Shown: positions 3,001-61,338, counted from the first letter of the stretch. The stretch is DNA of 64,000 nucleotides from Eledone cirrhosa (GCA_964016885.1 OZ024741.1:364684001-364748000); one strand, 5' to 3'. Numbers and translations are program-made. The notes: generated from the letters alone by a model not told the origin.

Positions 3001-6000
3001 CTATGTAGATAAGGCACTGTGTAGATATGAGATGTGTAGATATGGTACGGTTTAGGTATGACACTGTGTAGATATGATACTATGCAGATATTACACTGTG
3101 TAGATATGACACTGTGGAAATATGACACTGTGTAGTTATGACACTGTGTAGATATGATACGGTGTGGATATGACACTGTAGTTATGACACTGTGTAGATA
3201 TGACACTGTATAGATATGATACTGTAGATATGAAACTGTGTAGATATGACACTGTAGATATGACACTCTGTAGATATGACACTATGCAGTTATGACACTA
3301 TGCAAATATGACACTGTGTAGATATGACACTGTGTAGATATGACACTGTGTAGATATGACACTGTGTAGATATGACACTGTGGAGATATGACACTCTAGA
3401 GATATGACACTGTGTAGATATGACACTATGCTGATATGATACTGTGGAGATATGACACTGGGTAGATATGACACTGTATAGATGTGACACTGTGTAGATA
3501 TGACACTGTAGATATGACACTGTGGAGATATGACACTGTAGATATGACACTGTGTATATATGACACTATGTAGATTAGGCACTGTGTAATATGAGATGTT
3601 TTGATATGATACGGTCTAGGTATGATACTGTGTAGATATGACACTATGTAGATATGACACTGTGTAAATATGACATTGTAGAAATATGACACTGTGTAGA
3701 TATGACACTATGCAGATATGACACTGTGTAGATTTGACACTGTAGACATGATACTGTGTAGATATGACACTATGCAGATATGACACTGTGTAGCTATGAC
3801 ACTGTGGAAACATGACACTGTGTAGATATGACACTATGCAAATATGACACTGTGTAGATATGAAACTATGCAAATATGACACTGTGTAGATATGACACTG
3901 TGGAGATATGAGACTGTGTAGATATGACACTGTGGAGATATGACAGTGTGTAGATATGACACTGATTAGATATGACACTCTGGAGATATGACACTGTGTA
4001 GATATGACACTATGCTGATATGACACTGTGTAGATATGACACTGTAGATATGACACTGTGGAGATATGACACAGTAGATATGACACTGTGTAGATATGAC
4101 ACTATGTAGATAAGGCACTGTGTAGATATGAGATGTGTAGATATGATACGGTCTAGGTATGACACCGTGTAGATATGATACTATGCAAATATGACACTGT
4201 GTAGATATGACACTATGGAAATATGACACTGTGTAGTTATGACACTGTGTAGATATGATACGGTGTGGATATGACACTGTAGTTATGACACTGTGTAGAT
4301 ATGACACTGTGTAGATATGACACTGTAGATATGACAATGTGTAGATATGACACTATGCAGATATGACACTGTGGAGATATGACACTGTGGAGATATGACA
4401 CTGTGGAGATATGACACTGTGTAGATATGACACTGTGGAGATATGACACTGTATAGATATCACACTGAGGAGATATGACACTGTGTAAATATGATACGGT
4501 GTAGATATGACACTGTGTAGATATGACACTTGTAGATTTGACACTGTAGATATGAAACTGTGTAAATATGACATTGTAGATATGACACTGTGTAGATATG
4601 ACACTGTGTAGATATGACACTATGCAGATATAAAACTGTGTAGATAAGACATTGTGGAGATATGACACTGTAGATATGACACTGTGTAGATATGACACTG
4701 TGAAGATATGACACTGTGGAGATATGACAATGTCTAGATATGATACTATGCAGGTATGACACTGTGTAGATATGACACTATGCAGATATGACACTGTGTA
4801 GATATGACATTGTGTAGATATGACACTGTGTAGATATGACACTGTAGATATGACACCGTGTAGATATGACACTATGCAGATATGACACTGTGGAGATATG
4901 ACACTGTGGAGATATGACACTGTGGAGATATGACACTGTGTAGATAAGTCACTGTGGAGATATGACACTTTATAGATATGACAGTGTAGATATGACACTG
5001 TGTAGATATGACACTGTGGAGATATGACAGTTTATAGATATCACACTGAGGAGATATGACACTGTGTAAATATGATACGGTGTAGATATGACACTGTGTA
5101 GATATGACACTTTGTAGATTTGACACTGTAGATATGAAACTGTGTAAATATGACATTGTAGATATGACACTGTGTAGATATGACACTGTGTAGATATGAC
5201 ACTATGCAGATATAAAACTGTGTAGTTATGACACTGTGGAGATATGACACTGTAGATATGACACTGTGTAGATATGACACTGTGAAGATATGACACTGTG
5301 GAGATATGACACTGTCTAGATATGATACTATACAGGTATGACACTGTGTAGATATGACACTATGCAGATATGACACTGTGTAGATATGACATTGTGTAGA
5401 TATGACACTGTGTAGATTTGAGACTGTGTAGATATGACACTGGGTAAATATAACACTGTGTAAATTTGACACTCTTTTGATATGACACTGTCTAGATATG
5501 ACACTGTGTAAATATGACACTGTAGATATAACACTGTGGAGATATGACACCGTGTAGATATGACACTGTGTAGATACGAGACTGTCTAGATATGACACTG
5601 TGTAAATAAGACACTGTAGATATGACACTGTGTAGATATGACACTGTGTAGATATGACACTGTGTAGATATGACACTGTGTAGATATGACACTGTATAGA
5701 TATGACACTGTGTAGATGTTACACGGTGTAGATATGAAACTGTGTAGATATGACACTGTAGATATGACACTGTGTAGACATGACACTATGCAGATATGAC
5801 AACGTGTAGATATGACACTGTGTAGATATGAGACTGTGTAGATATGACACTGTGGACATATGACAGTGTGTAGATATGACACTGTGGAGATATGACAGTG
5901 TGTAGATATGACACAGATTAGATATGACACTCTGGAGATATGACACTGTGTAGATATGACACTATGCTGATATGACACTGTGTAGATATGACACTGTAGA

Positions 6001-9000
6001 TATGACACTGTGGAGATATGACACTAGATATGCCACTGTGTAGATATGACACTATGTAGATAAGGCACTGTGTAGATATGAGATGTGTAGATATGGTAAG
6101 GTTTAGGTATGACACTGTGTAGATATGACACTATGCAGATATGACACTGTGTAGATATGACACTGTGGAGATATGACACTGTGTAGATATACCACTGTGT
6201 AGATTTGACACTGTAGACATGATACTGTGTAGATATGACACTATTCACATATGACACTCTGTAGATATGACACTGTGGAAATATGACACTGTGTAGATAT
6301 GACACTATGCAGGTATGACACTGTGTAGATATGAAACTATGCAAATATGACACTGTGTAGATATGACACTGTGGAGATATGACACTGTGTAGATATGACA
6401 CTGTGGAGATATGACAGTGTGTAGATATGACACTGATTAGATATGACACTCTGGAGATATGACACTGTGTAGATATGACACTATGCTGATATGACACTGT
6501 GTAGATATGACACTGTAGATATGACACTGTGGAGATATGACACTATGTAAATAAGGTACTGTGTAGATATGAGATGTGTAGATATGACACTGTAGATATG
6601 AAACTGTGTAGATATGACACTGTAGATATGACACTGTGTAGATATGACACTATGCAGATATGACACTGTGTAGATATGACACAGTGTAGATATGACACTG
6701 TGTAGATATGACACTGTGTAGATATGACACTGAGGAGATATGACACTCTAGAGATATGACACTGTGTAGGTATGACACTGTGTAGATATGACACTATGCT
6801 GATATGACACTGTGGAGATATGACACTGGGTAGATATGACACTGTATAGATGTGACACTGTGTAGATATGACACTGTAGATATGACACTGTAGATATGAC
6901 ACTGTGTAGATATGACACTATGTAGATTAGGCACTGTGTAATATGAGATGTGTTGATATGATACGGTCTAGGTATGATACTGTGTAGATATGACACTATG
7001 CAGATATGACACTGTGTAAATATGACATTGTAGAAATATGACACTGTGTAGATATGACACTATGCAGATATGACACTGTGTAGATATGACACTGTGGAGA
7101 TATGACACTGTGTAGATATACCACTGTGTAGATTTGACACTGTAGACATGATACTGTGTAGATATGACACTATGCAGATATGACACTGTGTAGATATGAC
7201 ACTGTGGAAATATGACACTGTGTAGATATGACACTATGCAGGTATGACACTGTGTAGATATGAAACTATGCAAATATGACACTGTGTAGATATGACACTG
7301 TGGAGATATGACACTGTGTAGATATGACACTGTGGAGATATGACAGTGTGTAGATATGACCCTGATTAGATATGACACTCTGGAGATATGACACTGTGTA
7401 GATATGACACTATGCTGATATGACACTGTGTAGATATGACACTGTAGATATGACACTGTGGAGATATGACACTGTAGATATGACACTGTGTAATATGACA
7501 CTATGTAGATAAGGCACTGTGTAGATATGAGATGTGTAGATATGATACGGTCTAGGTATGACACCGTGTAGATATGATACTATGCAGATATGACACTGTG
7601 TAGATATGACACTGTGGAAATACAACACTGTGTAGTTATGACACTGTGTACATATGATACGGTGTGGATATGACACTGTATTTATGACACTGTGTAGATA
7701 TGACACTCTGTAGATATGACACTGTAGATATGACACTGTGTAGATATGACACTATGCAGATATGACACTGTGGAGATATGACACTGTGGAGATATGACAC
7801 TGTGGAGATATGACACTGTGTAGATATGACACTGTGGAGATATGACACTGTATAGATATGACAGTGTAGATATGACACTGTGTAGATATGACACTGTGGA
7901 GATATGACAGTGTATAGATATCACACTGAGGAGATATGACACTGTGTAAATATGATACGGTGTAGATATGACACTGTGTAGATATGACACTTTGCAGATT
8001 TGACACTGTAGATATGAAACTGTGTAAATATGACATTGTAGATATGACACTGTGTAGATATGACACTGTGTAGATATGACACTGTGGAGATATGACACTA
8101 GATATGCCACTGTGTAGATATGACACTATGTAGATAAGGCACTGTGTAGATATGAGATGTGTAGATATGGTACGGTTTAGGTATGACACTGTGTAGATAT
8201 GATACTATGCAGATATGACACTGTGTAGATATGACACTGTGGAAAAATGACACTGTGTAGTTATGACACTGTGTAGATATGACACTGTGTAGATATGACA
8301 CTGTGTAGATATGATACGTGTAGATATGACACTGTAGCTATGACACTGTGTAGATATGACACGATGCAGATATGACACTGTGAAGATATGACTATGTGGA
8401 AATATGACACTGTGTAGATATGAGACTATGCAGGTATGACACTGTGTATATATGATACTATGCAGATATGACACTGTGTAGATATGGCACTATGCAGATA
8501 CGACACTGTGTAGATATGACATTGTGTAAATATGACACTGTGTCGATATGACAATGTGTAGATATGACACTGTAGATTTGACACTGTGTAGATATGACAC
8601 TGTGTAAATATGACACTGTGTAGATATGACAATGTGGAGATATGACACTGTAGAAATGTCACTGTGTAGATATGACACTGTGTAGATATGACACTGTGGA
8701 AATATGACACTGTAGATATGACACTGTGGATATATGAAACTGTGTAGATATGACACTGTGTAGATATGACACTGTCTAGATATGACACTGTGTAGATATG
8801 ACACTGTGTAGATATGACACTGTGTAGATATGACACTGTCTAGATATGACACTGTGTAGATATGACACTGTGTAGATATGACACTGTGGAGATATGACAC
8901 TGTGTAGATATGTCACTGTGTAGATATGATACTGTGTAGATATGACACTGTGGAAATATGACACTGTAGATATGACACTGTGGAGATATGAAACTGTGTA

Positions 9001-9002
9001 GA
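1..9002. repeat. Tandem satellite, 16-bp monomer AGATATGACACTGTGT (14-bp deletion variants common), with higher-order duplications; runs off the left edge
   Basis: The monomer is visible continuously. Near-identical ORF-track peptides recur at offsets 535 (ends 612 vs 1147), 2119 (1463 vs 3582) and 2654 (410 vs 3064). The array ends abruptly at about 9002. Confidence 0.97.
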
Positions 9003-10932: not shown

Positions 10933-11290
10933 TCTATGCTTTGACGCATAGAGTTACGGCCCTTGCCATTCTGAGTTCAAATCCCGCCGAGGTTAACTTT
11001 GCCTTTCATCCTTATGGGGTCGATAAAATAAAGTACCAGTAATGCACTGGGTAATTGCTGGCTTTGTGCCAAAAGTAGAAACAATTATTATAACCAGGGC
11101 AGTGTATTGGCAGTATCGGTAGAGGGTCAGACGCCATGCTTTGCATCATAGAGTTACGGCCCTTTACGGTCTGAGTTCAAATCCAGCCAAGGTTAACTTT
11201 GCCTTTCATCCTTAAGGGGTCGATAAAATAAAGTACCAGTAATACACTGGGGAATTGCTGGCATTGTGCCAAAAGTGGAAACAATTATAA
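10933..11290 (+). mobile_element. Two tandem copies of SINE family S1 (tRNA-like head, GCCTTTCATCCT..GGGGTCGATAAAATAAAGTACCAG core, ATT tail); the first is 5'-truncated
   Basis: B-box-like GAGTTCAAATCC; same body as copies at 16.3, 17.6, 30.7, 48.4, 51.4, 53.2 and 61.2 kb; ATTATAAC recurs before, between and after the copies. Confidence 0.9.
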
Positions 11291-17040: not shown

Positions 17041-17895
17041 TAGGGGTCATGGACCTGCGGCTCCGGAGCCGCATGGGGCTCTTTAACCCATCTCGAATCG
17101 CTCATACGCACTCTTTGTAATTTTGTATTAAAAATAAACCCACGACTGTATTAAAAATAAACCCACGACTATGACCCGCACATTGAAGTAAATCAGATAA
17201 GATTCAAAACCAAAAGTCGCAGTTAATAAAAAAACATAAATGTTAACGAAATTCATGTTACCTAAATTCAACGCGAACCTAACATATCGAATGATTTCTT
17301 ATATCTCTACGACATCCCTTCCATTGTTATTAATATGGGTTAAGAACCAGCAGCTTCGGAGTTGCATGAAGCTCTTTAGCCTATCCTGTGTAACTCTCCC
17401 GAGCTCTGAATGTTATAAAAATGTTTAAATCTGCAATTTTGCATTAAAAATATAAAAGCAAAGACTTATAAGTTATAACATAAATATTGAAACAGTTTCA
17501 GATAAGATTCAAAGTTAAAAATCGTGTAAGAAAGAAGTTTGCTAAATCCATGCTTTCTTCTATAAATTTTTGTTTATAATAAATTGTGTCTTCGTTATTC
17601 TGAATCATTATTTTTTCTAGGTAAGGGCGGTGGATTGGTAGAATCGGTACAGCGTTGGACATCATGCTTTGCGGCTTAGAATTATAGCCCTTTGCGGTTT
17701 GAGTTCAAATTCCGCCGAGGTTTAACTTTACCTTTCATCCTTACGGGATCGATAAAATAAAGCACCAGTAATGCACTGGGGTCGGTTTAATCGACATTCC
17801 CCTTCCCTAAAATTGTTGGCCTTGTGCCTAAATCAGAAACCATTATTTTTTCTAGGTAAACATTGCTCTTTAAATTGAAAAGATTCCCCGCACTC
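17041..17895. mobile_element. Probable non-autonomous hAT-type DNA transposon relic containing an S1 SINE
   Basis: Left end TAGGGGTCATGGACCTGCGGCTCCGGAGCCGCATG resembles hAT/Charlie termini; internal direct repeats; the right end is uncertain. Confidence 0.35.
17625..17840 (+). mobile_element. SINE S1 with a 19-bp TSD
   Basis: CATTATTTTTTCTAGGTAA at 17606-17624 and 17841-17859. Confidence 0.93.
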
Positions 17896-20990: not shown

Positions 20991-21797
20991 CTAGCAGCTG
21001 AGCCCGGTTTCACCCGGGGCCACTTTTTATTAAGTTAATAATTTGAAAAATATTATTGAAAGTTTATTATAAAGAAGCAGTTTCAGGAAAAAAAATAGAA
21101 ATATGCACTTGGAGCTGGACGACGTACAATGAGAAGGTAAGGGTTTTATTTCTTTTGTTAGAAAACAGTGACCTTTTTCGATTTGGCATTTCGTAAAATT
21201 CTACTGCAGAATCGATTTCATAAAACGGTACTGTATGATCGTTATAGAAGTATTTAAATTTAATATAGATAATTGAAAAATGAAAATGAAACGTACTGTA
21301 GAAGGCAACAGTTTATTAATCTGCATTTTCAAACTTGCATATCATCGACATTGCTATTTCGCTGTTAATAAACAACGCTTTTCACGTCGCTTCACTTCTC
21401 ATTGTACGCCGTCCAGCCCCAAGTGCATATTTCTTTTTTTTTTTCCTGAAACTGCTTCTTTATAATAAACTTTCAATAATATTTTTTAAATTATTGGTAC
21501 TGTATGTTAACAGCGAGAGAACGTTGATGAGTTTAAAGATTTGTATGAAATTGTAAATAACTCATCCGAGTATTAGAACAGGGGGAAATAACTCACCGAA
21601 CGCGATAGTAAATAGACCGTTTGGGGGCCCTAGGGACCACATTTTTCAAGTTAGAGATTTGAAACCTCATCTATTTGCTTCCTTGGCACTTTTTACATAG
21701 GTGTGTAAATTTTCATGTCCGTCCGACCACGTCTACTTCCATTTAACCGTGCACATTTGAATTTCAACCACCACCCATTTCACAAATATATATTAGA
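20991..21797 (-). mobile_element. Non-autonomous Helitron with an internal ~100-bp inverted repeat (21038-21137/21394-21496)
   Basis: On the minus strand: 5' TC at 21797, 3' CTAG at 20994-20991, GC hairpin CCCGGGTGAAACCGGG about 12 nt before the end, inserted between A and T with no TSD. Confidence 0.85.
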
Positions 21798-22040: not shown

Positions 22041-22117
<77 letters not shown>

Positions 22118-22125
22118 ATAATGAT

Positions 22126-22275
22126 GTTTTCTTTATCAACTACAAGGTTGGCATAAAGTATAACATTAAGGACAGCACAGGACAATACAGGACGGTACAA
22201 ATGGGCATTTCTGCGTGTAAAAAAAAAATTATATGTATAAAAAACGAAACAAGAAAAAATTCCCCAATAGGGGCT
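22126..22275 (-). mobile_element. Tx1-type LINE, 3'UTR-only copy between AAT tracts
   Basis: Matches the 3'UTRs at 22339-22490 and 23391-23540. Confidence 0.88.
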
Positions 22276-22282
22276 AATGATG

Positions 22283-22338
<56 letters not shown>

Positions 22339-22339
<1 letters not shown>

Positions 22340-23339
22340 TTTTCTTTATTAACCACAAGGGTTTACATAAAGTAGACATTAAGGACAGTACAGGACAATA
22401 CAGGACGGTACAAATGGGCATTTCTGCGTGTAAAAAACAAAAACAGAGGATGTAACAAAAAAATAACAATGAAAAATTCCCCAATACGGGGGGAGACTTC
22501 CGAGGGACATTCGTGGAGAAAGACCATTAAAAAGCCACAGTGACCCTGACCACCAGGGCAAGTGCCCTCTCCCAGTTTTCCACCTTTAATTTACAGACAT
22601 ATACTCAGAGTAGGCCCATTCACTCGGACCATTCTTGCCTCTCTCACCCATCTTTCAACAAAATGCTGGGAAGAGAGCACTTCCCTTTCTACCCTGATTT
22701 TCCTTTTCAAATGAAATTTGAAAAAGTTAATCAGGGCATCATCGAAGAGGTAAGTGCTCGTCTTCAGCCCTTTCAAACGTGTCCACCATACTATCTCTTT
22801 CGCCATGGCCTACAGACAGATAAAAACTGCCTGCCCTTCCCGGCTAAAAGAAGAGGGCGGGGCAATCCTGACGATGGACTCAGCTGATAGCTGGATCCGT
22901 CCTACACGCGACAGCAGGTGTTCGACATGAACCCACAAGTCAGCAATGCTCAGACACTGGACGAGTGCATGAAGGACGGTTTCGTCGCCCTGCACGCATC
23001 TCGGACGTGCCCGGCTGACGGCACCTCAATGCCTGTAGAATTTATCCCGAACTGGCAAGCTCCTCGGTAGCACTGCCAGGCCAGGTATTTCTGGAAGTTG
23101 TCCATAGGCCCCGGACCGAAAGTCTTCCGAAGAGATTGGCTAGTTGATTTACGTCGACGCCTAGAGTTTTCTCAAGTACGTCGTCGCTCTTCCCCTCCAC
23201 TAATCCTCTATAGAAAGCCAAGGCGGAGTTTCCACCGATCACATTGCCCGATTGGTCGAGGGCTGTGAGCGCCTGAAGACATTCCAGTCTCCAAGCGCTC
23301 CCTCTCGGTCTTCGCTTGACCCAGGACTGCAGCTCCGTC

Positions 23340-23340
<1 letters not shown>
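22339..23340 (-). mobile_element. 5'-truncated Tx1-type LINE (ORF2 C-terminal Zn-finger region plus 3'UTR)
   Basis: Closely similar to 23391-24390; stop codon at 22591; (AAT)n on both sides. Confidence 0.93.
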
Positions 23341-23392
<52 letters not shown>

Positions 23393-23640
23393 TTTCTTTA
23401 TTAACCACAAGGGTTTACATAAAGTAGACATTAAGGACAGTGCAGGACAATACAGGACGGTACAAATGGGCATTTCTGCGTGTAAAAAACAAAAACAGAG
23501 GATGTAACAAAAAAAAAAAATGAAAAATTCCCCAATAGGGGGGAGACTTCGGAGAGACATTTGTGGAGAAAGCCCAGTAAAAGGCCACAGTGACCCTGAC
23601 CACCAAGGCAAGTGCTCTCTCCCAGTTTTCCACTTTTAAT

Positions 23641-26600
23641 TTACAGATACGTACTCAGAGTAGGTCCATTCACTCGGGCCATTCTTGCTTCTCTCACCCA
23701 TCTTTCAACAAAATGCTGGGAAGAGAGCACTTCCCTCTCTACTCTGATTTTCCTTTTCAAATGAAATTTGAAAAAGTCAATCAGGGTATCACCGAAGAGG
23801 TAAGTGCTCGTCTTCAGCCCTTTCAAATGTGTCCACCATACTATCTCTTTCGCCATGGCCACCAGACAGATAAAAATTACCTGCCCTTCCCGGCTAAAGG
23901 AAGAGGGCGGAGCAATCCTCACGATGGACTCAGATTATAGCCGGATCCGTCCTACACGCGACAGCAGGTGTTCGACATAAACCCACAAGTCAGCAATTTT
24001 CGGACACTGGACGAGTGCGTGCAGGATGGTTTCGTCGCCCTGCGCGCATCTCGGACATTCCCGGCTGACGGCACCTCCATGCCTGTAGAGTTTATCCCGA
24101 ACTGGCAAGGCTCCTCGGTAGCACTGCCAGGCCAGAGATTTCTGGAAGTTGTCCATAGGTCCCGGCCCAAAGTTCTTCCGAAGAGATTGGCTAGTTGATT
24201 TTCGTCGACGCCTAGAGTTTCCCCAAGTACGTCGTCGCTCTTCCCCTCCACTAATCCTCTATAGAAAGCCAAGGTGGAGTTTCCACCGATCACATTGCCC
24301 GATTGGTCGAGGGCTGTGAGCGCCTGAAGACATTCCAGTCTCCAAGCGCTCCCTCTCGGTCTTCGCTTGACCCAGGACTGCAGCTCCATCAAGGAAACGA
24401 GCTGGGGAAATACGTGTCTAGCAAACGGCGACCACACCTGATCACCGTCGAGGAAGAGGTGGAGATGTCGTAGCCTGAGTGGGTGTCTTCGCATCATCAG
24501 CCACGGCATTCCCAGCCCTCTACGGAGCGGGTGTTGACAGCAGATGGACCTCCTGACCATCGGAGCGCGTCCCTTCCACAAAAAGCGAAAGAGCAAACGC
24601 TCCAACGCAGTCAGGCGGGGCTTAGGACAAGGTACGACGGTCAGGCGGTAGCAGGTGACAGACGCGATGTACGCGTTAGCCACCTCCGCTCGACCTTTCA
24701 GGGATAGCTTCCTCTCCGCCCATTTCTGGGTGAGAGAAGCCACCCTGCTCGTCACCTCGTCCCAGTTTTTGTCCGAGCTGCAGGCCCCTGACTTTTCCTA
24801 GTTGATCATTGCTCCTGTCACCGCTTCGTATTCTCTTAGTGTAGTGCCGATCGCCTCGATGTGTTTGGCGTTCGACACCACTACGGTGACATCGTCCGCA
24901 TATGCTGACACGGATCTTCCGCATCCTAGTTCGCGCGGGACGCCCCTCAACGTCTCCAGTCTGTGCAGTAATGGCTCGAGAGTCAATACGTACAAGAGGG
25001 ACGAGAGGGAACATCCTTGGCGGACCGAGCGCATGATGTTGAACGGTTCCGAAAGGTGACCGTTCACTCTCACCACAGAGCAGATATCGCTGTGCATGGC
25101 AGCGATCCAGCCTCTGAAGACGGGCCCAAAGCCAGCCGCCCTCAGGACTGCCGCTAGGTAACGATGGTCGACCCTATCGAAAGCTTTCGACTGATATAAA
25201 TTGATCAAGGACCCACCCGTGCCAGGTTCCCTAGCTACCCTCTCTACGATGTATCGCATGAGGTGGAGGTTGTCGTGGATGGATCTGTCGGGAATGGCGC
25301 ATGTCTGCGCCTCTCCCACCAGACCACCAACGACAAGCGCCAACCTCTTTGCTAGCACCTTGGCCAAAATCTTGAACTCTGTGTTTAGCAGAGTTATGGG
25401 CCTGAAATTATCTATGTTATCCCCCTTGTTCGGATCCTTTCTCAACAGTGCCACCGCTCCTCGGCTCACAGAACTGGGAATTCTCCCGTTCTGTTGCCAG
25501 TTGCAGTAGACGTCCACCAAGAGGCCTCCGAACAAGTCTGGCATCTGTACGTAAAGTTCATAGGGCAGACCATCCAAACCAGGCGATTTACCCCTTGCGC
25601 AGCCAATCATTGCCTCCCGTATTCAGCGGCTGTTATCGGCTTTTCACAACACTCCACCTCAGTGGCCGAGAGCCAAGGCAGTCCGTCGAGGTAGACACTA
25701 AAGTCCATCGCTCGACCCGGCCTACCGCTGCCCCCGAACAGCTGAGCGAAGTGTCGCTGAAAAGCTTCACACATTTGACCGGGATCGAGTAGCATGCGCC
25801 CGTCGTGGTCCACCAAAGACCAGATCGTGGCTTTGTTGCCACGACGCGCCTCCGCCACTGGGGCCCATTGAACGGCTCTCGTCCCCTCGTGTCTGAGAGC
25901 ACGCACCCTAGCTCTGACAACGCAGCCTTCGTGCTTTGCATTGAAGAATTAGTCAAGGGCCAATTTCGCCGCAAGCACGTCGGTCGCGATGCCTTTGCTA
26001 AGCGCCTCGTCTAATTTTCTAACTAGTTCTCCCTCTGCTCTATTTTTCTCTATTGCTAAAGCCTTACTAAACCTAATGGATTCTATTCTAATCGCTCTTT
26101 TCAGAGCAAACCACCACTTGTTGTTGACAATGGCCCCCGTCAACGCCCGCTTAACTAGTTCGCTAATCCGGTCTCTGTAGGGCTTGCGCGCTGGTAAGGA
26201 CGCGTTTAGCTTCCAGTAGCCGGGTCCTCGTCTATGAAGCCTATCTAAGTCAAGCACACAGATCACGAATTTGTGGTCCGTGTAGCTGACTATCTTGAAT
26301 TGTGGACAGCCTATGCTAGACCTATCTATTCCCCTACAAAATACTCTATCTAGATATGATCTGGATGACCCTATACGATTTGTCCAAGTCCACATTGGCA
26401 CATTCGGGAAATCCAATCGGTACCTGTCAGACAGTTCAAAACGCCTGAGCAGGTTGGTGAGGCTCTTGCACCCTCCACCCTATCCGCTAATCCCACACAG
26501 TCCCAGCGTGCATCTAAGATCCCGTTCCAGTCGCCCACTAATACTAAAGAGCCTGACGTTCCAAGAAAGGTCTCCAGACGCCGGAAAAAATCAGGCCGCC

Positions 26601-26952
26601 CTGCTCCTGTCGGGGCATAGACGGCCACTAGCCTGAAAGCTTGCCCGTCTCCGCTGGTCACGTCCAGCACCACCAACTTACCCTCTGGGTCCAGGAAGAT
26701 GGCCCGTATGGCGAGATCCAAACCTCTCCGAAAAAGCACAGCAACTCCTCCTCCCGATCCAGGATGGCTGGGAGATGCGTACACATCGTAGCCGCCGAAG
26801 ATCGGTGCGAAGGCCCGTGCTTCGGAGATTCTGGTCTCGCTGATGGCCACTACATCTATGTTTAGTGACCTGAGGTCGTTGAGCAGCTGACCCTGCTTCC
26901 ATGACGACCCCAAGCCACGCGCATTTATGCTGCCTCTTCTGAGTGAGGTCAT
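23641..26952 (-). pseudogene. Tx1 ORF2 (AP endonuclease, reverse transcriptase, C-terminal Zn finger), frameshifted
   Basis: GSINARGL, ISETR, VGDWN, SYLDR, YTDHK (APE); SPGLDGLP, NFRPITLLN, SKAFDRVDH, RQGCSLS, AYADDV (RT); ECPRC..ETILHALVQC. Split over several ORFs. Confidence 0.93.
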
Positions 26953-26954
26953 GT

Positions 26955-29128
26955 TTAAAATAGAGTTGAAAAGATGGGAAAGACCACTTACCGTACTTTT
27001 CGTAGAGGAAGGATGGTTTCTCCATCCATTTACACTTGATCGTCTGGTGAAGGGACCGTTGAATCGTCCCTTCGGCTGGTCGTCGGACTTCTATGAGTAT
27101 GTCCGAATATACTCTTCGGTTGAGAGTCCCTCCTAGGCCTCTGAAATCACCAACTACGTTGGGGAATTTCGTTTTAATGTTTGTGTATTGTTTCTGTGCT
27201 ATTTTTAGCAGCCTTATGTTCGTTGGCGTTTTGATTGGTGCTGGTATTATGTAGTCGTGCTGTGAAATGTCTGTGTGTTCAATTATATAAGTCATTAGTT
27301 TCTTGTTGTGTGTTTTTATTGCCGTGCATTTGTTTTTATGGGGGTGGGGTGTGGTTCTGCTATTTTCTTGTCGTTGTTGCTGGGTGTGTGTGTTTTGTTG
27401 TGTTTGCGATGTTGGTGTTTGTGGTGTTGAAGGTGTTGTTGTTGTTGGCGGTAGGGTTGCCGCCGGTGGTGATGGTGGTGCTAGTGTGGGTGGTGATGGT
27501 GTTGGTGGTGTTGCTGCTGTGAGTCTCTTTGCAGTAGCTTTTACCCATTTTCATTTCTTTCCTCTCTTTTCGAAGGCGACGATGCGCTGCTTCTGCGTTT
27601 GTGCCTTCTTACGACCTTTTGCCATCCCTCTCCCACCTCACACTCCATGGCTGATTCTGTGAGGTCGGGGAGGGGTACCAGCTCCACTCTTTCATTTGTT
27701 GTTGTTGGTGATGTTTGCAGTGGAGTCTCTGTTGCAGCTGCATTTGGTATTACTGTTGTTGTTAATACTTCCACTGCTGCTGCTGTTCTTGATTTTCTTG
27801 ATTTGCGTGGGTATGGGTGCCACGGACCTATCGTTCCTGGTTGCCGCTTGTCCTGTTGCTGGTAGCCGTGGAGCCGGTTTCGGAGGGAGGGGATTCTTCT
27901 CCTTTCTCAGGGTCTTCTCGTTGCAGAAGGCCCTGAGGTGAGTCTTCGATCCACAGCGAAAACATTTCGGGCGTTTGCCCTCAACACTTATGGGCAGTTG
28001 AGTGCCGTTATCGAAGTCTATCACATCCGGGATAGCTTCGATGCACTCCTGGTTGGTTTGGATTAACATCTCAATGGAGGTGCCGACCCAATCTTCTCTT
28101 ACTTTTTTCTGTACTTGCAGTACAGTTGTTTTGCCCTCGATTCCGACGAGGACAGACGCGGCCAGCCAAGAAGGGGCCATCCGGGGGGGGGGGGGGCGGG
28201 GACGGGGACATGGGTCAGTTTGACCCTCACAATTTTTTTCCCGCAGTAGGAGGGCACCAACACCATTTCCTCGCTCCTTAGGGTCACTAAGGATTGAGCC
28301 TTTGCCTCCTGGGGTGTGGCAAAAAGCACGTCTACGGTGGCATATTTCTTGCCTCGGGTGATGTGCGTTTTCCGCTACCACACAGACCCTAAGGCTTTTT
28401 GTATTTGAGCCTCTGTGGCTCTTTCAACCCTACGTGATTTTGTGCTAACGGTACGTGACCGTACAGTGCTGTTGGGTTTCGAAAATTTTTTCGGCTGCCT
28501 TGCAGATTGCTCGGTGTCCGGATTTCGTCACCATCTTCTTCGCTTCCTCTAATTCCTCATTTGTTATGAGGATGGTTTCCAGGTTCTTTGCGATACCTGC
28601 AAACGAGATTGCTTTTTCTTTGCTGCTGTTGTTGTTGTTGTCGTCAGAGCTGCTGTTACTTTTGTTGTTGCTGCAGGTACTACGACTACTGCCGCCGCCG
28701 CTGTTGCTGTGGTTGTTGTTGTTGTTGCTGCTGCTGCTGTTGTTGTTGCTGTTGCTGCTAATGCTGTTGTTGTTTATGCTGCTGCTGATGCTGTTGCGGC
28801 TGCTACTGTTGTTTTCCTTGTCACTGTTGCTGCTGCTGCTGTTATTACGGCTGCTACTGCTATTATTCCTGACGTCAGACGAATGAAATGGGTTTTCGTA
28901 TTTCCCGCACACCTTTTTCGTCGTTGTCGTCGTCGTGGTGGAGAAATCTTGCACGCTTTGCACGTGATTTTTCTTTTCTGGCGTCGCTTGCGAAAGAGAA
29001 GGGAGGGAGAGAGACACATTTAGAGAAGAGAGGGAGAGAGACAATCTTCTCTCTGCTGTAGTGACGATTGAGGAAGAAGAAGACGGAATGAGTGGGAGTG
29101 ACCTATGAAAATTCTTTTTCGTAGCCAT
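26955..29128 (-). pseudogene. Tx1 ORF1 (gag-like, CCHC zinc knuckle), frameshifted, with Ser/Asn/Thr low-complexity tracts
   Basis: ATG at 29128 (MATKKNF); CFRCGSKTHLRAFC at about 27923-27964; lies upstream of ORF2; the 3' end is approximate. Confidence 0.8.
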
Positions 29129-29387
29129 GTTTTTTTTTCGTTTAAAATAAATATTGGGCACAAAACCCCAATAAGCGGTTATTTAACCCCGAAGGGCCAA
29201 ATAACGGGCAGAAAGACCCCTCTCACGAGGAGGAGTGTGTTTTTGTCTACAATTTGGTTAAAGTTTTAAACAATTTACAATTGTTATAGCGGTCAAAATT
29301 TACAATACCTTACAGAGCCGAGCCTCCGTCAACCATATTCAATAATAATAATAATAATAATGATAATAATAATAATAATAATAATAA

Positions 29388-30703
29388 AAAATTGAGCTGA
29401 AGCAACGAAATCCAGGTACTAACAGGTGAGATGATAAAGGAAATTGACACTGAAGAAGGATAGAAATATTTATGTGTTCTGGAGGCAGATGACATCAAGA
29501 ACAAAAAAAGAAGAAAGAATTGATAAGATCTGAGTACATTAGGAGAGTAAGGAGCGTATTAAAATCACATCTAAATAGTAGGAATGTCATAAGTGCAGTA
29601 AATTCCCGAGCTGTGTCTATTATTAGGTACAGTGCGGGAATTCTGAAATGGAATGTTGCTGAAGAAAAAGAAATGGATAGGAAGACTAGGGAGCTATTAA
29701 CTATCTACAACATGTTCCACAAGAGGAGTGATGTCGATAAACTCTACTTAAAGATATCTGAAGGTTGAAGAGGTCTTATCAGCATAGAGGACTGTGTTCA
29801 GATGGAGAAAAACAACCTGCACAAATACGTGATTGACAGTAGGTAGACAATGCTCAAAATTGTACTGAGGGAGAAGACAATAGACCAGGGGATGTCCAAG
29901 GAAGAACTAACAACAAGGAGGAAGAGCAACCTTCATGAAAAATCCCTTCATAGTACCTTCTTTAAGAAAACTGAATTTAGAGATCCACAGACATGGAACT
30001 GGTTAAAAAGAGGAGACCTTAAAAAGGCTACAGAAGGAATGCTTATGGCTGCGCAAGAACAGGCCCTCAGAACGAAGTGGGTGAAACACCATATTTACAA
30101 GGAGGAGGCTAGCCCACTGTGTAGGATCTGTGGAGAAAGAGAGGAGACTGTGACTCACATTGTATCCGAGTGTAAACACCTAGCCCAGGCTCACTATAAA
30201 GGCTAGAGACAATTTACCACATTCTGAGAAGTGGTATGAGCATAAGCCAGAGTCGGTGATAGAAAATGATTAGGTGAAGGTGCTGTGGGATTTTAGGATA
30301 CAAACAGACAAGAAATTAGAACACAATAGGCCTGACCTGGTGGTTTTGTACAAGGAAAAAAGATCGTGCCTGCCCATTTGAAACGAGAGTGCAAGAAAAG
30401 GAGAGGGAGAAAATTAACCGATACCAGGACTTAAAGTGGGAGGTAAAAAGGATTTGGAACTGCCATGAAGTCAGCGTCGTCCCGATTGTCATAGGAACAC
30501 TAGGTACTATCTCAAAGAGTTTCCAAGGATGGTTAAAGAAAGTTAGTCCAGCCCCGCTGTTTGGAACACTTCAAAAGGCATGCTTGCTGGGAACAGCAAG
30601 AACCCTCCGATACGTCCTGAATATCTGAGGCTACAGATAGTGGCTTGATATTCTTTTCAACAAACTTTCCAGTTAAATAACATCAATGACCGAGACACAA
30701 AGA
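29388..30703 (+). mobile_element. 5'-truncated R4/Dong-clade (RLE-type) non-LTR retrotransposon
   Basis: EG*KYLCVL, DVDKLYLKISEG*RGL, MAAQEQALRT, CRICGEREETVTHIVSEC, VLWDFRIQTD..HNRPDLVV, VPIVIGTLG; stop at 30628; flanked by (AAT)n. Confidence 0.88.
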
Positions 30704-30708
30704 ATAAT

Positions 30709-30890
30709 ATTTGTTTCTACTTTTGGCACAAGGCCAGCAATTACCCAGTGTATTACTGGTACTTTATTTTATCGACCCCGTAAGGATGAAAGGCAAAGTT
30801 AACCTCGACGCGATTTGAACTCAGAATGGCAAGGGCCGTAACTCTATGCGTCAAAGCATGGCGTCCGACCCTCTACCGATACTGCCAATC
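30709..30890 (-). mobile_element. SINE S1 inserted in the (AAT)n tail of the R4/Dong element
   Basis: Reverse complement of S1, with AATAAT on the left and (AAT)n at 30894-30923. Confidence 0.88.
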
Positions 30891-30893
30891 GAC

Positions 30894-30924
<31 letters not shown>

Positions 30925-39886: not shown

Positions 39887-39887
<1 letters not shown>

Positions 39888-39955
<68 letters not shown>
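39888..39955. repeat. (CTAT)n tract at the 5' side of the Tx1 array
   Basis: Direct inspection; further tracts at 42150-42200, 42232-42328, 46006-46024 and 47346-47403. Confidence 0.97.
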
Positions 39956-39956
<1 letters not shown>

Positions 39957-42149
39957 GTGAGGAAGGACGAGAACAAAGGGGACGATATAAATAATTTCAG
40001 GTCCATAACTCTGCTAAATACAGAGGTACAGATTTTGGCCAAGGTGCTAGCAAAGAGGTTGGCGCTTGTCGTGGGCAACCTGGTGGGAGATGCGCAGACA
40101 TGTGCTATCCCGTCCAGGTCCATCCACGATAACCTCCACCTCATGCGATACATCATAGAGAGGGTTGGGAACGAACCCGGCTTTGGTGGGGCCCTGATCA
40201 ACTTGGATCAATCTAAGGCATTCGATAGGGTCGACCATGGTTACCTGGATGCGGTGCTAGCGGCGGCAGGCTTCGGACCCGTTTTCAGGGGCTGGATCAA
40301 TGCCATGCACAGCAGCCGCATCTGCTCTAGGGTCAAGGTGAACGGCTACCTCTCGGAGCCGTTCGAAATCGCGCGGTCCATCCGACAGGGGTGCCCTCTC
40401 TCCTCCCTTCTGTATGTAGTGACTCTAGAGCCACTGCTGCGGAAGTTGGAGTTGTTGCAGGGCATCCCGTTGGAACCGGGATTGCGGAAAGCGGTGTCAG
40501 CCTACGCCGATGACGTAACAGTAATGGTGTCGACGGCCTCGGAAATCGGGGCGATCGGCACCTTACTGGAGGAGTACGAAAAGTTTACAGGGGCTAAGCT
40601 GAACTGGGACAAGTCGATCGGTCTACAACTCGGCACGTGGAGGGGCAGATAGATGCCCTCCGATGGCGTCGTCGGGCGCTGGACGGAGGGCCCGGTGAAA
40701 TTGCTCGGGGTCTGGTTCGGACCAGACCTCCAGGTGGAGAAGAACTGGGGTGAGGTGACGAGCAGGGTGTTTGCACTGACTCAGAAGTGGGCCGAGTGCA
40801 AACTATCCCTGAAAGGTCGGGCGGAGGTGGCGAACACCTATATAGCGTCCGTCATCTACTACCGCCTGACCGTGGTGCCTTGCCCAAGGGAAACGCTCGC
40901 CAAAATGGAGCGCGCACTCTTCCAATTCCTTTGGAAGAGGCGGGCTCCTATGGTGAGGAGATCCATCTGCTGTCAACACCCTTCGAAAGGAGGGCTGGGG
41001 ATGCCGTGGCTGATGATACGTAAACACGCATTAAGGCTACGGCACCTTCAGGTATTCCTCTCCGGTCAACCGGTGTGGGCCCCGTTTGTGAGGCGAGCCT
41101 TTCCAAGACTCGTCTCACTCACCGAGCTGCAATCCTGGGTCAAGCAAAGACCGAGAAAACTGGGCGCCTGGCACACCGAGTGTGCCCAGGCGCTCACGGC
41201 TCTCTGGCAGGCGGACCCGGCTGTCAGTGGAGAATCCACCTCGTCATTCTATAGAGGGCTGGTGGTTAACAGGTGCGACGACGCCCTCGGAGAAGCCCTA
41301 GGCATGGAGGAAGACGAACTGGCCAACCTGTTCGGTAGGACATTCAGCCCGGGACCCATGGATAACTTCCAGAGGTCCCTGGCCTGGCAATGCTACAGAA
41401 GGGCTCTGCCCGTTCGAGAAAGGCTCTACAGACACGGGCGCCCGGGTAGGGACCCATCGAAAAAGGTCTGTCCCAGATGCGTCTGCGACGAGGAAACCGT
41501 TGCACACGCATTGGTACACTGCTCGGGCATTGCCGATCTGTGGGGCTATGTCGAACAACTGCTGTCAAGGGTGGGACCGATCCGGTTGACCACCGAGTCT
41601 ATTGTAACGATCAAGCCGCCTCCCCTCTTCAAAAACGAAGGAGAGGCGGTGTTTCTGTGCGTAATAGCCATGGCGAAAGAGGTTGTATGGTGGACGCGTC
41701 TGAAAGGACTGAGGTCAGACACCTTTCTCTCTGGCCAACAACTGGTCCGTTTCTTCCGATATCATTTCGGAAGAAGGATCAGGATGGAGAGAGAGGTGCT
41801 GCACCCCAGCCGTTTCTATGAAAGATGGGTGAAAGTGGCGAGAATGGCCCGTGTGAATGGGCCTTCACTCTACATCAGACTATAGGTGAGGAAGATGAAA
41901 GACCAAGGGAGCACCCCTTCTCTGTGCTCCTGAGGAGAAGAGTTGCACACTTTTTTCGGGGGTGTGTGCGACCCCCCAAGGCGCCTCCTCTCTATTGAGG
42001 ACTTTGTTATAAATTTTATTTTTTGTTATATTTTATTTTATTTTTATATATTGTTATTGCCTCCTCCTTATTGAGGACGCCTTGTTTTGTAAACTCCCCC
42101 CTTTGTACTTGTCCCACTTTTGATGCCCTGGTGGCAAATAAAAGAAACA
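39956..42149 (+). mobile_element. 5'-truncated Tx1 LINE, (CTAT)n lineage copy 1 (RT, Zn finger, 3'UTR)
   Basis: NFRSITLLN, QSKAFDRVDH, RQGCPLS, AYADDV, VCPRC..ETVAH; in-frame stop at 40650; ORF ends 41885. Confidence 0.95.
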
Positions 42150-42200
<51 letters not shown>

Positions 42201-42204
42201 ATAT

Positions 42205-42230
42205 AATGCCTTTATGGTAAATAAAGAAAT
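42205..42230 (+). mobile_element. About 25-bp 3'-terminal Tx1 remnant between CTAT tracts
   Basis: ATGCCTTTATGGTAAATAAAGAAAT versus the terminus TGCCCTTGTGGCTAATAAAGAAAT. Confidence 0.7.
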
Positions 42231-42231
42231 A

Positions 42232-42328
<97 letters not shown>

Positions 42329-42329
<1 letters not shown>

Positions 42330-45300
42330 ATGGAAATCGTGCAGCCTGGTCCCCAGGAGACGAAGAGGTGAGTGATTTCTTTTCCTCTTCTTTTAACTTT
42401 TCAGCACCAACATGGCCAATATAAGAATTGGATGTGTGAATGTACGCGGCCTGTGGATGCCCTGAAACAGGGAAAACTCTTAAACGACCTCAGGTCGCAC
42501 AGTATGGATTTAGTAGCCATTTACGAGTCCAGGATCCACAGCGAGCGACAACTGGCTCCCTTCTTCGACAACTTTGAGATTTACGCATCTCTCTGTCAGC
42601 CGGTTGGTGGAGGCGGGGTTGCCGTTTTGCTGCGGAAACACCTGGACCTCGTAACACAGACGGTACATCTGGACCCGGAGGGTCGACTGGTAGTACTAGA
42701 CGTTGACGGGGTAGTAAAGGTGGAACCTTCAGGCTGGTGACCGCATATGCTCCATCCGGGACACCGCGTCCAGACTTCTTCAAACGTCTAGAGACTTTTC
42801 TGGTAACGTCCCGCTCCCTGCTGTTAGTGGGGGACTGGAATAGAATCCTAGAGGCACGTTGAGACTATGTGGGAGCATGTCCCGATAGAGGGGGGGGGGG
42901 TGTGTGTAACAGCCTCAAACAGTTAATCGGCCGATTTGACTTGGTCGATAGATATCGACTAGATTTTCCGACTGTGCCACTGTGGACGTGGATTAATCGT
43001 AGCGGAACATCTAGATCGTACCTAGACAGGGTTCTTGTTAGAAAGAAGGATAGGGACATATTAAGCTGTCCACAAATGTTCATGGTTGACTATTCAGATC
43101 ACAAATTAGTGACCTGCTTAGTCAACCTTGACAAAACCCATAGACAGGGACCCGGCTACTGGAAGCTGAACTTGTCGTTACCGAGATGCAAAGCCTACAG
43201 TAGACGGATTAGCACCTTAGTTAAGCAGCACTTGACGGGGGCCATTGTCAACAACAGTTGGTGGTACTCTCTCAAGAGGGAAGTTAGATTAGACTCGATA
43301 GGTTTTAGTAAAGAATTAGTGTTAGATAGAAATAAGACCGAAAAGGAACTGGTAGATAAAGTAGAAGAGGCACTTAGGAGTGGCAACGTAACCAGCGTGC
43401 TAGCAACGAGAACGGCCTTGGACCAGTTCTTCGACGCAAAGCATGAAGGCTGCGTTGTCAGAAGCAAAATACGTGCTCTGGGAAACGAGGGAGCCAAAGC
43501 TGTTAGCTGGGCCCGAGTGACGGAGGCGAAAAGTGGCAACAGGTTCACGATTCGGTCTTTGAAGGACCAAGAAGGACGCGTGATACTTGAACCGAAGCAA
43601 ATGTGCGCGGCCTTTCAGCGGCACTTTGCTCAACTGTTCGGTCAGGGCGGCGCACCGGGAGGGGCTATGGATTTCGGTTCATACCTCGATGGCCTACCGC
43701 GACTCGCGGACAGCGAGGCGAAGTTCTGCGAAAGGCCAATTTTGGCCGCTGAGATAGGGGACGCGCTGAGCCAATGTGGCAAACGCAAATCTTCAGGTCT
43801 CGACGGTCTACCCTACGAATTTTACGTAGCAATGCCGGACTTATTTTCCGGTCTCCTGGAAGCGGTCTACTGCAACTGGCAGCAGAACGGGAGAATTCCC
43901 AGTTCTGTGACCAAGGGCGTAATCACGTTAGTCAGGAAGGACGAGAACAAGGGGGATGACATAGGCAACTTCCTGCCCATAACTCTGCTCAACACAGAGT
44001 TACAGATTTTGGCCAAGGTGTTGGCAAAGAGGCTGGCGCTTGTCGTCGAAAACCTGGTGGGAGAAGCGCAGACATGTGCAATCCCGACCAGGTCCATACA
44101 CGACAACCTCCACCTCATGCGATACATCATAGAGAGGGTAGGGTGTAAACCCGGCTTCGGTGGGGCCCTGATCAACTTGGATCAGTCTAAGGCTTTCGAT
44201 AGGGTTGACCATCGTTACCTGGATGCGGTGCTCGAGGTGGCAGGCTTCGGTCCCGTGTTCAGGGGCTGGATTGCTGCAATGCACAACAGCAATATCTTCT
44301 CAAGGGTCAAGGTGAACGGCTACCTCTCGGAGCCGTTCCATATCACGCGATCCATCCGATAGGGATGCCCTCTCTCCTCCCTTCTGTACATACTGACTCT
44401 CGAGCCACTACTGCGGAAGTTGGAGCTATTGCAGGGCATCCCTTTGGAACCGGGACTGCGAAAAGCGGCGTCGGCCTACGCCGACGACGTGACAGTAATG
44501 GTGTCGAGCACCTCGCAAATCAGGGAGGTCGGAACATTACTGGAGGAATACGAAAGGTTCACAGGAGTGAAGCTGAACCGGGACAAATCTGTCGGTTTGC
44601 AACTCGGAACGTGGAGAGGCAAACCGATGCCTTCCGATGACGTCGTCGGACGATCGACGGAAGGACCGGTAAAGCTGCTCGGGGTCTGGTTTGGCCCTGA
44701 CCTCCAGGTGGAGAAGAACTCGAACGAGGTGACGGCCAAGGTATTTGCGCTCACCCAGAAGTGGGCCGAGTGCAAACTATTCTTGAAAGGTTGAGCGGAG
44801 GTGGCGAACACTTTTATAGCGTCCGTCATCTACTACCGCTTGACCGTTGTGCCTTATCCAGCCAAAACGCTCACCAAAATGGAGCGCGCGCTCTTCCAAT
44901 TCCTTTGGAAGAAACGGGCTCCTTTGGTGAGAAGATCTATCTGCTGCCAACACCCTTCAAACGGAGGGCTGGGGATGCCGTGGCTGACGATGCGCTCAGG
45001 CTGCGGCAACTCCACGTATTCCTCACCAGACAACCGGTGTGGGCCCCGTTCGATTGGCACATCGAATGTGCTCAGGCGCTCACAGTCCTCTGGAAAACGG
45101 ACCCGGCGATCAGTGGAGACTCCACTTCGACATTCTATAGAGGGTTGGTTCGCAGCAAGTGCGGCGACACGCTCGGAGAAACTCTGGGCGTAGAGGAGGA
45201 CGAACTGGCCAGTCTGTTCGGTAGGACCTTCCGCCCGGGACCAGTGAACAACTTCCAAAAGGACCTGGCCTGGCAGTGCTACCGAGGAGCTCTACCAGTT

Positions 45301-46005
45301 CGAGACAAGCTCTACAGACACGGACACCCAGGTAGGGACCCTTCGAAAAAGATCTGTCCGAGATGCGTGCGCGACGAGGAAACCGTTGCACACGCATTTG
45401 TACACTGCCCGGGCGTTACCGACCTGTGGGGCTATGTAGAACGACTATTGTCGCGGGTGGGACCAATCCAGTTGACCACCGAGTCCATTGTCATGATCAA
45501 ACCGCCACCCTCCTTCAAAAACGAGGGAGAGACGGTTTTCCTATGTGTTATGGCTATGGTGAAAGAGGTTATATGGTGGACGAGGTTAAAAGGGCTGAGG
45601 TCAGACACCATTCTCCCCGGCGAGCAACTGACTCGTTTTATAAAATATCATTTTGGAAGAAGAATCAGGATGGAGAGAGAGGTGGTGCTGTACCCCAGCA
45701 GATTTTATAAAAGGTGGGTGAATGTGGCAAAGATGGCCCGAGTGGTTGGGCCTTCTATCTATATAAGCCTGTAGGTTGAGGAAAAAAAGGAAGAGAGGAA
45801 TGGAGTACTCACTCTTGGTGCTCCTGGAGATGAGCGTTGTACATTTTTTCGGGGTGTGTACAACCCCTGTGTAACACCTCCCCATATTGGCGATTTCAAT
45901 TGTTATTTGTTATTGTATTAATAGTTTTATTTTCATATACCTGTATGTAAACTCCCCATTTGTATTTGTCCCCTTCTTTTGTGCCCTTGTGGCTAATAAA
46001 GAAAT
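42329..46005 (+). mobile_element. Tx1 LINE, (CTAT)n lineage copy 2, with a complete but disrupted ORF2 (42412-45774)
   Basis: MANIRIGCVNVRGL, VGDWN, SYLDR, YSDHK, RT motifs and Zn finger; several stops and frameshifts. Confidence 0.95.
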
Positions 46006-46024
46006 TTATCTATCTATCTATCTA

Positions 46025-47345: not shown

Positions 47346-47406
<61 letters not shown>

Positions 47407-61155: not shown

Positions 61156-61338
61156 TAGGCGGTGAATTGGCAGTATCGGTAGAGGGTTGGACGCTATGCT
61201 TTCTAGCATAGTTACGTCCCTTTACGGTCTGAGTTCAAATCTCGTCGAGGTTAACTTTGCCTTTCATCCTTACGGGGTCGATAAAATAAAGTACCAGTAA
61301 TGTACTGGGTTATTGCTGGCCTTGTGCCAAAAGTAGAA
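61156..61338 (+). mobile_element. Full-length SINE S1 with a 19-bp TSD
   Basis: ATTATTTATAACTTGCATT at 61137-61155 and 61339-61357. Confidence 0.95.

What the first reader, a model, noticed from the sequence alone, without database searches (positions are those of the whole stretch)
22126..29387. Sister Tx1 lineage specific for (AAT/ATT)n, including a full-length copy
Seen: three co-oriented copies (150 bp, 1 kb, 5.95 kb), each separated by AAT repeats. The tract also abuts the 5' end at 29340. The 1-kb copy joins its tract through a short AA microhomology. Inference: the same stacking behaviour as the CTAT array on a different repeat, with ORF1 and ORF2 available for consensus reconstruction.
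Basis: partly seen in the sequence, partly recalled or inferred. Interest (0 to 1): 0.78.

Follow-up and report, generated by a model that had tools for sequence, protein, structure and literature searches.

The report
Octopod Tx1 retrotransposon targeting ATT repeats
Three decayed copies of one jumping gene, likely from an octopus-type animal, lie nose-to-tail in a run of AAT repeats, most likely because the element keeps inserting at the short motif ATTAT; repeat-targeting is a known habit of this group, but this target was not found in the papers searched.

Summary
Observation confirmed. Three minus-strand copies of a Tx1-type LINE (147 bp, 1.0 kb, 5.95 kb; 85-94% alike) each sit between (AAT)n tracts, and the 2-nt AA microhomology is real. 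The long copy is dead: at least 6 ORF2 breaks and a ~100-bp deletion. The short copies are not late duplicates of it.

The ATT after the 3' end looks target-derived. Copy A has a GAT-marked 7-8-bp duplication. A SINE with the same 3' hairpin has 11-19-bp duplications starting ATTAT at 5 of 8 independent sites, all five in unique DNA. So the likely target is 5'-ATAAT-nick, which (AAT)n supplies densely. The same tract also holds an opposite-strand R4/Dong-like element and a SINE, five insertions in all. The AAT and CTAT lineages share a clade, each with its own Argonauta relative.

Genome-wide 5' flanks and transcript ends remain untested. Microsatellite-targeting Tx1 is known (Kibi, Koshi, crocodilian families); an ATT target was not found in my searches. 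This scan already noted the same kind of train on other DNA of this genome. Verdict: new variant of a known kind, moderate interest.

The parts
22112..22126 (+). left end of the AAT tract, next to (AT)35; ends in TAATGATG, left copy of the likely target-site duplication of copy A
22127..22273 (-). copy A: 147-bp 3'-UTR fragment, divergent subfamily (85% to C), hairpin variant CAAC-cttgta-GTTG
22275..22338 (+). AAT tract starting TAATGATG (right copy of the duplication), 21 units, 2 of them GAT
22339..23341 (-). copy B: 1.0-kb 5'-truncated copy (ORF2 end and 3' UTR), own stops and frameshifts, 2-nt microhomology at its 5' junction
23340..23390 (+). (AAT)17 between B and C
23391..29340 (-). copy C: 5.95-kb near-complete Tx1-type LINE, inactive
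23638..26952 (-). ORF2 remnant: APE endonuclease, reverse transcriptase, zf-RVT; breaks near 26468, 25949, 25620, 24798, 24172 and 23935; about 100 bp missing near 24780
26953..29128 (-). ORF1 remnant (broken; low-complexity N-terminus, one CCHC knuckle near 27950); its 3' limit is not fixed
   Evidence: family leads only
23391..23415 (-). 3' terminus: 4-bp stem with CUUGU loop, AAUAAA, GAAA(A/U)C, then ATT with no poly(A)
29341..29387 (+). (AAT)7 GAT (AAT)7 tract between the 5' ends of copy C and of the opposite-strand element
29388..30696 (+). 5'-truncated, decayed LINE with CCHC and restriction-like endonuclease motifs (R4/Dong-like; clade not tested)
30704..30893 (-). tRNA-type SINE (head type judged by eye) with the Tx1-like 3' hairpin
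30894..30923 (+). (AAT)10, right end of the original tract and 5' flank of the SINE

Best explanation
Three decayed copies of a Tx1-type LINE lie head-to-tail in one AAT microsatellite, most likely because the family inserted there repeatedly by target-primed reverse transcription at the motif 5'-ATAAT-3'. Shown: the copies, their domains, their independent decay and the junction sequences. Inferred steps: (1) ORF2p binds the small CUUGU hairpin at the RNA 3' end. (2) The APE endonuclease nicks the AAT-reading strand after ...ATAAT. (3) The freed 3' end likely pairs with a few AUU bases just behind the element's GAAA(A/U)C end; these would be in the RNA because AAUAAA lies only about 6 nt before the junction. 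This would explain why no poly(A) is copied. (4) A second nick 7-19 nt away duplicates the target, so each insertion leaves fresh sites on both sides and later copies stack in one orientation. The SINE with the same hairpin likely borrows these enzymes. A restriction-like (Dong-type) element would use the same duplex from the other strand. I put targeted insertion itself at about 0.85, and the version with RNA pairing at about 0.6.
For: Domains APE, RT and zf-RVT. 3 of 3 5' and 3 of 3 3' junctions lie in AAT tracts that make up 0.2-0.5% of the window. C's 5' tract is bounded by the 5'-truncated end of another element, so it is nobody's 3' tail on C's strand. Copy A is flanked by TAATGATG on both sides, while GAT occurs only once in the roughly 60 other units of these tracts. 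7 of 10 SINE copies with a 3' end have flanking direct repeats of 8-19 nt (P <= 0.005 each), all starting at ATTAT; 2 of the 7 are tandem partners, leaving 5 of 8 independent sites, against an ATTAT frequency of 0.26% per position. Hairpin: 86.5% of 52 cells paired, 3 of 4 pairs with two-sided change, 0 of 500 shuffles reach the covariation score. No poly(A) at 3 of 3 AAT or 4 of 4 CTAT 3' junctions. B differs from C at 60 of about 1002 positions, 9 of 31 changed codons synonymous (neutral expectation 0.30), and carries the family allele at 3 of 3 listed near-fixed C-private sites. One contig in run X1 shows another ~60-bp copy joined to a further 3' end through an AAT-rich spacer (table 5c).
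Against: Only three Tx1 copies at one locus, and two of the three 5' tracts double as 3' tracts. No genome-wide count of 5' flanks was obtained. The SINE evidence bears on Tx1 only if Tx1 moves the SINE, which is inferred. 3 of 10 SINE copies show no significant duplication (two lie in repeat tracts that would hide one, one has none), and only 2 of 16 SINE hits have an (ATT)n 5' flank. The hairpin is 4 bp, was picked by eye from these same sequences, and has only three or four related lineages behind it. Copy A pairs only with a one-base shift. One search showed 40 of 376 variant places, so the private-allele test rests on 3 sites. Nothing here separates endonuclease choice from RNA pairing.
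Confidence: 0.6

Rival explanations
1. Insertion is targeted, but the endonuclease alone picks the site; the RNA carries no target-like tail, and the AAT and CTAT lineages differ by protein changes.
For: The usual view for Tx1-clade elements (PMC4494074 passage; PMC3812793 passage). Tx1L endonuclease nicks almost only its own site in vitro (PMC1950540 passages). The endonuclease region is the more divergent part between the lineages (64-67% DNA identity against 78-81% in the RT core).
Against: The betaB6-betaB5 loop has the same length and similar sequence in both lineages. AAUAAA 6 nt before the junction predicts an RNA that runs into the repeat, yet no poly(A) is copied. Faster endonuclease divergence is common in LINEs (own knowledge).
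Confidence: 0.25
2. The (ATT)n is an RNA-encoded or slippage-made 3' tail of an element that inserts with little preference; the stack arose by template jumping or double insertion.
For: Other LINEs end in short repeats (I element TAA, UnaL2 TGTAA; PMC3747384 passage; RTE repeats, PMC6007223 abstract). The 5' tracts of A and B are the tails of B and C. B and C decayed neutrally from a similar source and could be the same age.
Against: It does not explain C's 5' tract, the GAT-marked duplication around A, or SINE duplications in unique DNA that start with ATTAT. A is a different subfamily with its own duplication. Tandem dimers are themselves attributed mainly to site preference (PMC5932611 abstract).
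Confidence: 0.08
3. Copy B is a local 1.05-kb tandem duplication of C's 3' end plus tract, made by microhomology-mediated repair.
For: B plus its tract aligns with C plus its tract at 94% over 1055 nt; the junction has a 2-nt microhomology.
Against: B shares none of 3 listed near-fixed C-private alleles and has its own stops. Short microhomology is also typical of 5'-truncated LINE insertions (own knowledge). It cannot explain A. A duplication very soon after C inserted is not excluded.
Confidence: 0.05

Closest known systems
Kibi (TC)n and Koshi (TTC)n of teleosts; crocodilian Tx1 families on (TTCC)n/(TTTC)n (PMC4494074 and PMC3812793, passages read)
   Same: APE-type Tx1-group LINE found in microsatellites, with the repeat on both sides
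   Different: Their targets are polypyrimidine tracts; here the target is ATTAT/(ATT)n, with a related lineage on (CTAT)n. The RT is only 38% identical to the Takifugu pol-like protein BAC82606.1 and falls outside its branch. That this record is one of the Kojima and Fujiwara 2004 Tx-group deposits is recalled; its element name was not shown.
Dong (R4 clade) of Bombyx, Anopheles and Biomphalaria, on (TAA)n (PMC3812793 passage)
   Same: Same repeat duplex; a Dong-like element shares this very tract
   Different: Dong uses a restriction-like endonuclease (R4 clade per PMC4640811 passage; Dong's placement in R4 from the label Dong-R4 in PMC13282606). The Dong-like element here reads the AAT strand, while the Tx1 copies have an APE domain and read the ATT strand.
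SART1/TRAS of Bombyx on (TTAGG)n (PMC7265360 abstract; TRAS orientation recalled)
   Same: Stacking of site-specific LINEs in a short tandem repeat; opposite-strand use of one repeat
   Different: R1 clade, telomeric, poly(A)-tailed; here the repeat is interstitial and no poly(A) is copied
Tx1-Mar and SINEU of crocodilians (PMC4494074 passages)
   Same: A Tx1 family and a SINE share a target, which implies trans-mobilisation
   Different: There the target is a Mariner element and the SINE head is snRNA-derived; here a tRNA-type SINE also shares a 3' hairpin with the LINE

Membership tests
Tx1 clade (L1 group) non-LTR retrotransposon | ORF2 with N-terminal APE endonuclease, RT and C-terminal zinc domain | tested here: met
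   PF03372 E 2e-10, PF00078 E 4e-24, PF13966 E 6e-10
Tx1 clade (L1 group) non-LTR retrotransposon | RT closer to Tx1-group proteins than to mammalian L1 or R2 | tested here: met
   187-188 bits to Takifugu pol-like and alligator 'TX1 149 kDa' proteins against 86 bits to human L1 ORF2p and 67 or fewer to R2; two separate phmmer searches
Tx1 clade (L1 group) non-LTR retrotransposon | Placement inside the clade in an RT tree with named references and an L1 outgroup | tested here: inconclusive
   The tree of 40 rows (3 window copies, 37 of 120 held hits chosen by hand) had no L1 outgroup and a midpoint root
Tx1 clade (L1 group) non-LTR retrotransposon | ORF1 with RNA-binding domains and CCHC knuckle | tested here: inconclusive
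   CCHC motif visible; no Pfam hit; Atlas leads below 0.9 include RBD_ZCCHC3 and zf-CCHC clusters
Target-specific Tx1 family (criterion of PMC4494074: target in over 20% of flanks) | Target enriched in flanks across the family | tested here: inconclusive
   3 of 3 in this window, one locus only; no genome held; metagenome scans empty
Kibi / Koshi | (TC)n or (TTC)n target | tested here: not met
   All junctions are ATT
Dong / R4 (for the three Tx1 copies) | C-terminal restriction-like endonuclease, no APE | tested here: not met
   APE present in copy C
Dong / R4 (for neighbour 29388-30696) | RT followed by CCHC and PD-type nuclease, no APE | tested here: met
   280 of 408 aligned residues identical to P0121, which has RT and a weak restriction-fold hit but no APE
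Dong / R4 (for neighbour 29388-30696) | RT phylogeny within R4 and not HERO or NeSL | not tested
   No named references were fetched

The most novel reading that the evidence does not exclude
Octopod Tx1 lineages change target by changing a few RNA bases, not the enzyme. A shared hairpin positions the RNA, a loosely AT-specific nick opens the DNA, and the target bases read through into the transcript decide where priming succeeds. One old clade could then radiate onto ATT, CTAT and other repeats, and its SINE would inherit the address.
Probability: 0.2. Interest if true: 0.65.

Novelty: new variant of a known kind. Interest (0 to 1): 0.42.

Why it matters
How APE-type LINEs pick microsatellites is described as not well understood (PMC3812793, 2013, passage). 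Two related lineages in one genome, with the same RNA hairpin but different repeat targets, plus a SINE that records the minimal site in unique DNA, form a natural swap experiment for endonuclease versus RNA pairing. The finding also explains how long LINE trains build on one microsatellite. It is not a new principle, and the copy here is dead.

Tried and rejected
No whole genome is held, so no genome-wide junction survey or family alignment was possible.

Metagenome scans found nothing: a 22-nt 3'-UTR pattern gave 0 loci; the zf-RVT peptide gave 0 confirmed of 348 candidates.

Run search: no RNA holder listed; this says nothing on expression. In one search the raw-read run X22 laid 0 reads. 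X20 (RNA only a guess) and X12 gave mostly A-rich spurious ends. Only 18 of 2410 loose ends were displayed, none a usable truncation junction. No read-level view of full-length 5' ends was obtained.

Summed contig depth (about 430,000-1,120,000 over ORF2, falling about fourfold near 27009) is not a copy number. I read the drop as divergent ORF1 regions among subfamilies, untested.

Look-ups of earlier notes by sequence and by relatives were empty.

Literature: 8 answered searches listed no paper describing an ATT/AAT-targeting Tx1 or cephalopod Tx1 targets. PMC8967140, PMC9115989 and PMC11203168 (passages) and PMC13282606 (part 1 of 3) mention Tx1 or Dong counts only. I did not see Kojima and Fujiwara 2004, Repbase or Dfam entries, or the supplements of PMC4494074 and PMC13282606, any of which may already list this family and target.

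Rejected: that the long copy is intact; late local duplication of B; membership in Kibi/Koshi or Dong.

Full report
Observation. The sequence and self-BLAST show three minus-strand copies sharing one 3' end: A 22127-22273 (85% to C), B 22339-23341 (94.0% over 1002 nt) and C 23391-29340. (AAT)n tracts lie at 22112-22122, 22275-22338, 23340-23390 and 29341-29387. B's 5' junction shares AA with the tract. AAT/ATT runs of three or more units make up 0.5% of the non-satellite window and 0.2% outside this train, so the arrangement is not chance. However, the 5' tracts of A and B are also the 3' tracts of the next copy.

What it is. Copy C encodes APE endonuclease, RT and zf-RVT. Its RT scores 187-188 bits against Takifugu pol-like and alligator TX1-named proteins and 86 against human L1. 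The closest named relatives are Argonauta hians proteins (72% and 63%), so the host is probably an octopod; this is not established. C is dead. Frameshifts lie near 26468, 25620 and 24172, stops near 25949, 24798 and 23935, and about 35 codons are missing near 24780. ORF1 is broken too. In run X1, 42,677 contigs were laid on the element body, and at most of the 40 listed places (of 376) nearly all depth differs from C, so these are private changes. The family is abundant in that run, but depth gives no copy number.

Independence of the copies. B and C differ at 60 positions, each has its own stops, and 9 of 31 changed codons are synonymous against a neutral expectation of 0.30. B has the family allele at 3 of 3 listed near-fixed C-private sites. 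Both therefore decayed separately from a similar source. About 3% each would be roughly 8 million years on the scale used in PMC13282606 (part 1 of 3 read); this is a rough inference. A duplication just after C inserted is not excluded. A is a divergent subfamily.

Target or tail. Three lines favour target. First, C's 5' tract is closed on its other side by the 5'-truncated end of an opposite-strand element. Second, A is flanked by TAATGATG on both sides (22119-22126 and 22275-22282), and GAT occurs once in the roughly 60 other units. This reads as a 7-8-bp target-site duplication with no copied tail. Third, a SINE in the window ends in the same hairpin. Of its 10 copies with a 3' end, 7 have flanking direct repeats of 8-19 nt (P <= 0.005), all beginning at ATTAT. 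Removing 2 tandem partners leaves 5 of 8 sites, in unique DNA, against an ATTAT frequency of 0.26%. Three copies show no significant repeat, and only 2 of 16 SINE hits have an (ATT)n 5' flank. The likely minimal site is therefore a nick after ATAAT on the strand opposite the RNA, and (AAT)n is simply a dense array of such sites. This transfers to Tx1 only if Tx1 moves the SINE, which is inferred from the shared hairpin, strand and junction. One X1 contig shows a further short copy joined to another 3' end through an AAT-rich spacer.

The 3' end. AAT copies, the four CTAT-array copies and six SINEs share a 4-bp stem with a CUUGU-like loop. 86.5% of 52 cells pair, 3 of 4 pairs change on both sides, and no shuffle of 500 reaches the score. 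The structure was chosen from these sequences and few lineages stand behind it, so this is support, not proof. AAUAAA lies about 6 nt before the junction in B and C. Cleavage normally falls 10-30 nt after such a signal (own knowledge), which is inside the repeat, yet none of 7 Tx1 3' junctions shows poly(A). I infer internal priming by pairing of AUU bases with the nicked strand. Transcript ends were not observed.

Relation to the CTAT array. In an RT tree of 40 rows (37 of 120 held hits, chosen by hand; no L1 outgroup), both lineages fall in one 7-row clade (99/99). The AAT copy pairs with Argonauta P0002 (96/94) and the CTAT copies with Argonauta P0050 (100/99). The split thus likely predates the divergence of host and Argonauta, if the host is not Argonauta itself. 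DNA identity between the lineages is 64-67% in the endonuclease and 78-81% in the RT core. The target-probing loop has equal length and similar sequence (loop role from PMC1950540 passages). This does not settle whether enzyme or RNA sets the target.

Wider context. The tract runs on to 30923. It holds a decayed 5'-truncated element with CCHC and restriction-like motifs on the plus strand (29388-30696) and a minus-strand SINE (30704-30893), five insertions in all. Earlier notes of this scan describe such trains, the CTAT/GATA lineage and the SINE hairpin on other DNA of this genome. I treated them as leads and tested the hairpin and the train here.

Known and new. Tx1-clade microsatellite targeting is established: Kibi (TC)n, Koshi (TTC)n and crocodilian (TTCC)n/(TTTC)n (PMC4494074 passages). 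TAA repeats are the known target of Dong (PMC3812793 passage). Tandem dimers through site preference are known (PMC5932611 abstract). Eight answered searches listed no ATT-targeting Tx1. Repbase, Dfam, Kojima and Fujiwara 2004 and unseen supplements may hold it.

Verdict. A real, most likely target-directed Tx1-type family with an unreported-looking ATTAT/(ATT)n target. It works like Kibi and Koshi but is not a member of them. Genome-wide specificity and the role of RNA pairing stay open. Interest 0.42.

Noticed in passing
window 29388-30923: A Dong-like RLE element (+ strand) and a SINE (- strand) continue the same AAT tract, making five insertions from two endonuclease classes on opposite strands.
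   Followed up: partly
window 10936-11288, 17630-17847, 53231-53444, 61166-61339, 61406-61548: SINE copies have 8-19-bp target-site duplications that all begin at ATTAT; two loci are tandem SINE pairs.
   Followed up: yes
window 39887-47404: The CTAT array holds three long Tx1 copies and a 27-bp mini-copy (about 42203-42229) that is only the 3' hairpin and AAUAAA; all four 5' junctions lie in the repeat, mostly after TA.
   Followed up: partly
window about 26990 (- strand) and about 42368 (+ strand): Both lineages have a splice-donor-like GTAAGT/GTGAGT and a pyrimidine run about 40 nt before the ORF2 ATG. Contig depth in run X1 drops about fourfold just upstream in element sense. No RNA test.
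   Followed up: no
run X1, laid on window 23393-23485: A high-depth joint (433 and 363) links a ~95-bp 3' fragment to the next 3' end through about one ATT unit: possibly a tandem or dimeric non-autonomous derivative of this family.
   Followed up: no
window 1-9002: A 16-bp satellite of about 573 copies with strong strand skew.
   Followed up: no
window 21037-21136 and 21395-21495: A 100-bp inverted repeat pair, 95% alike, just left of the train; probably a MITE.
   Followed up: no
window 29340: One G (element sense) stands between the ATT tract and the presumed 5' end of copy C; it could be a cap-derived extra base, but one copy cannot show it.
   Followed up: no
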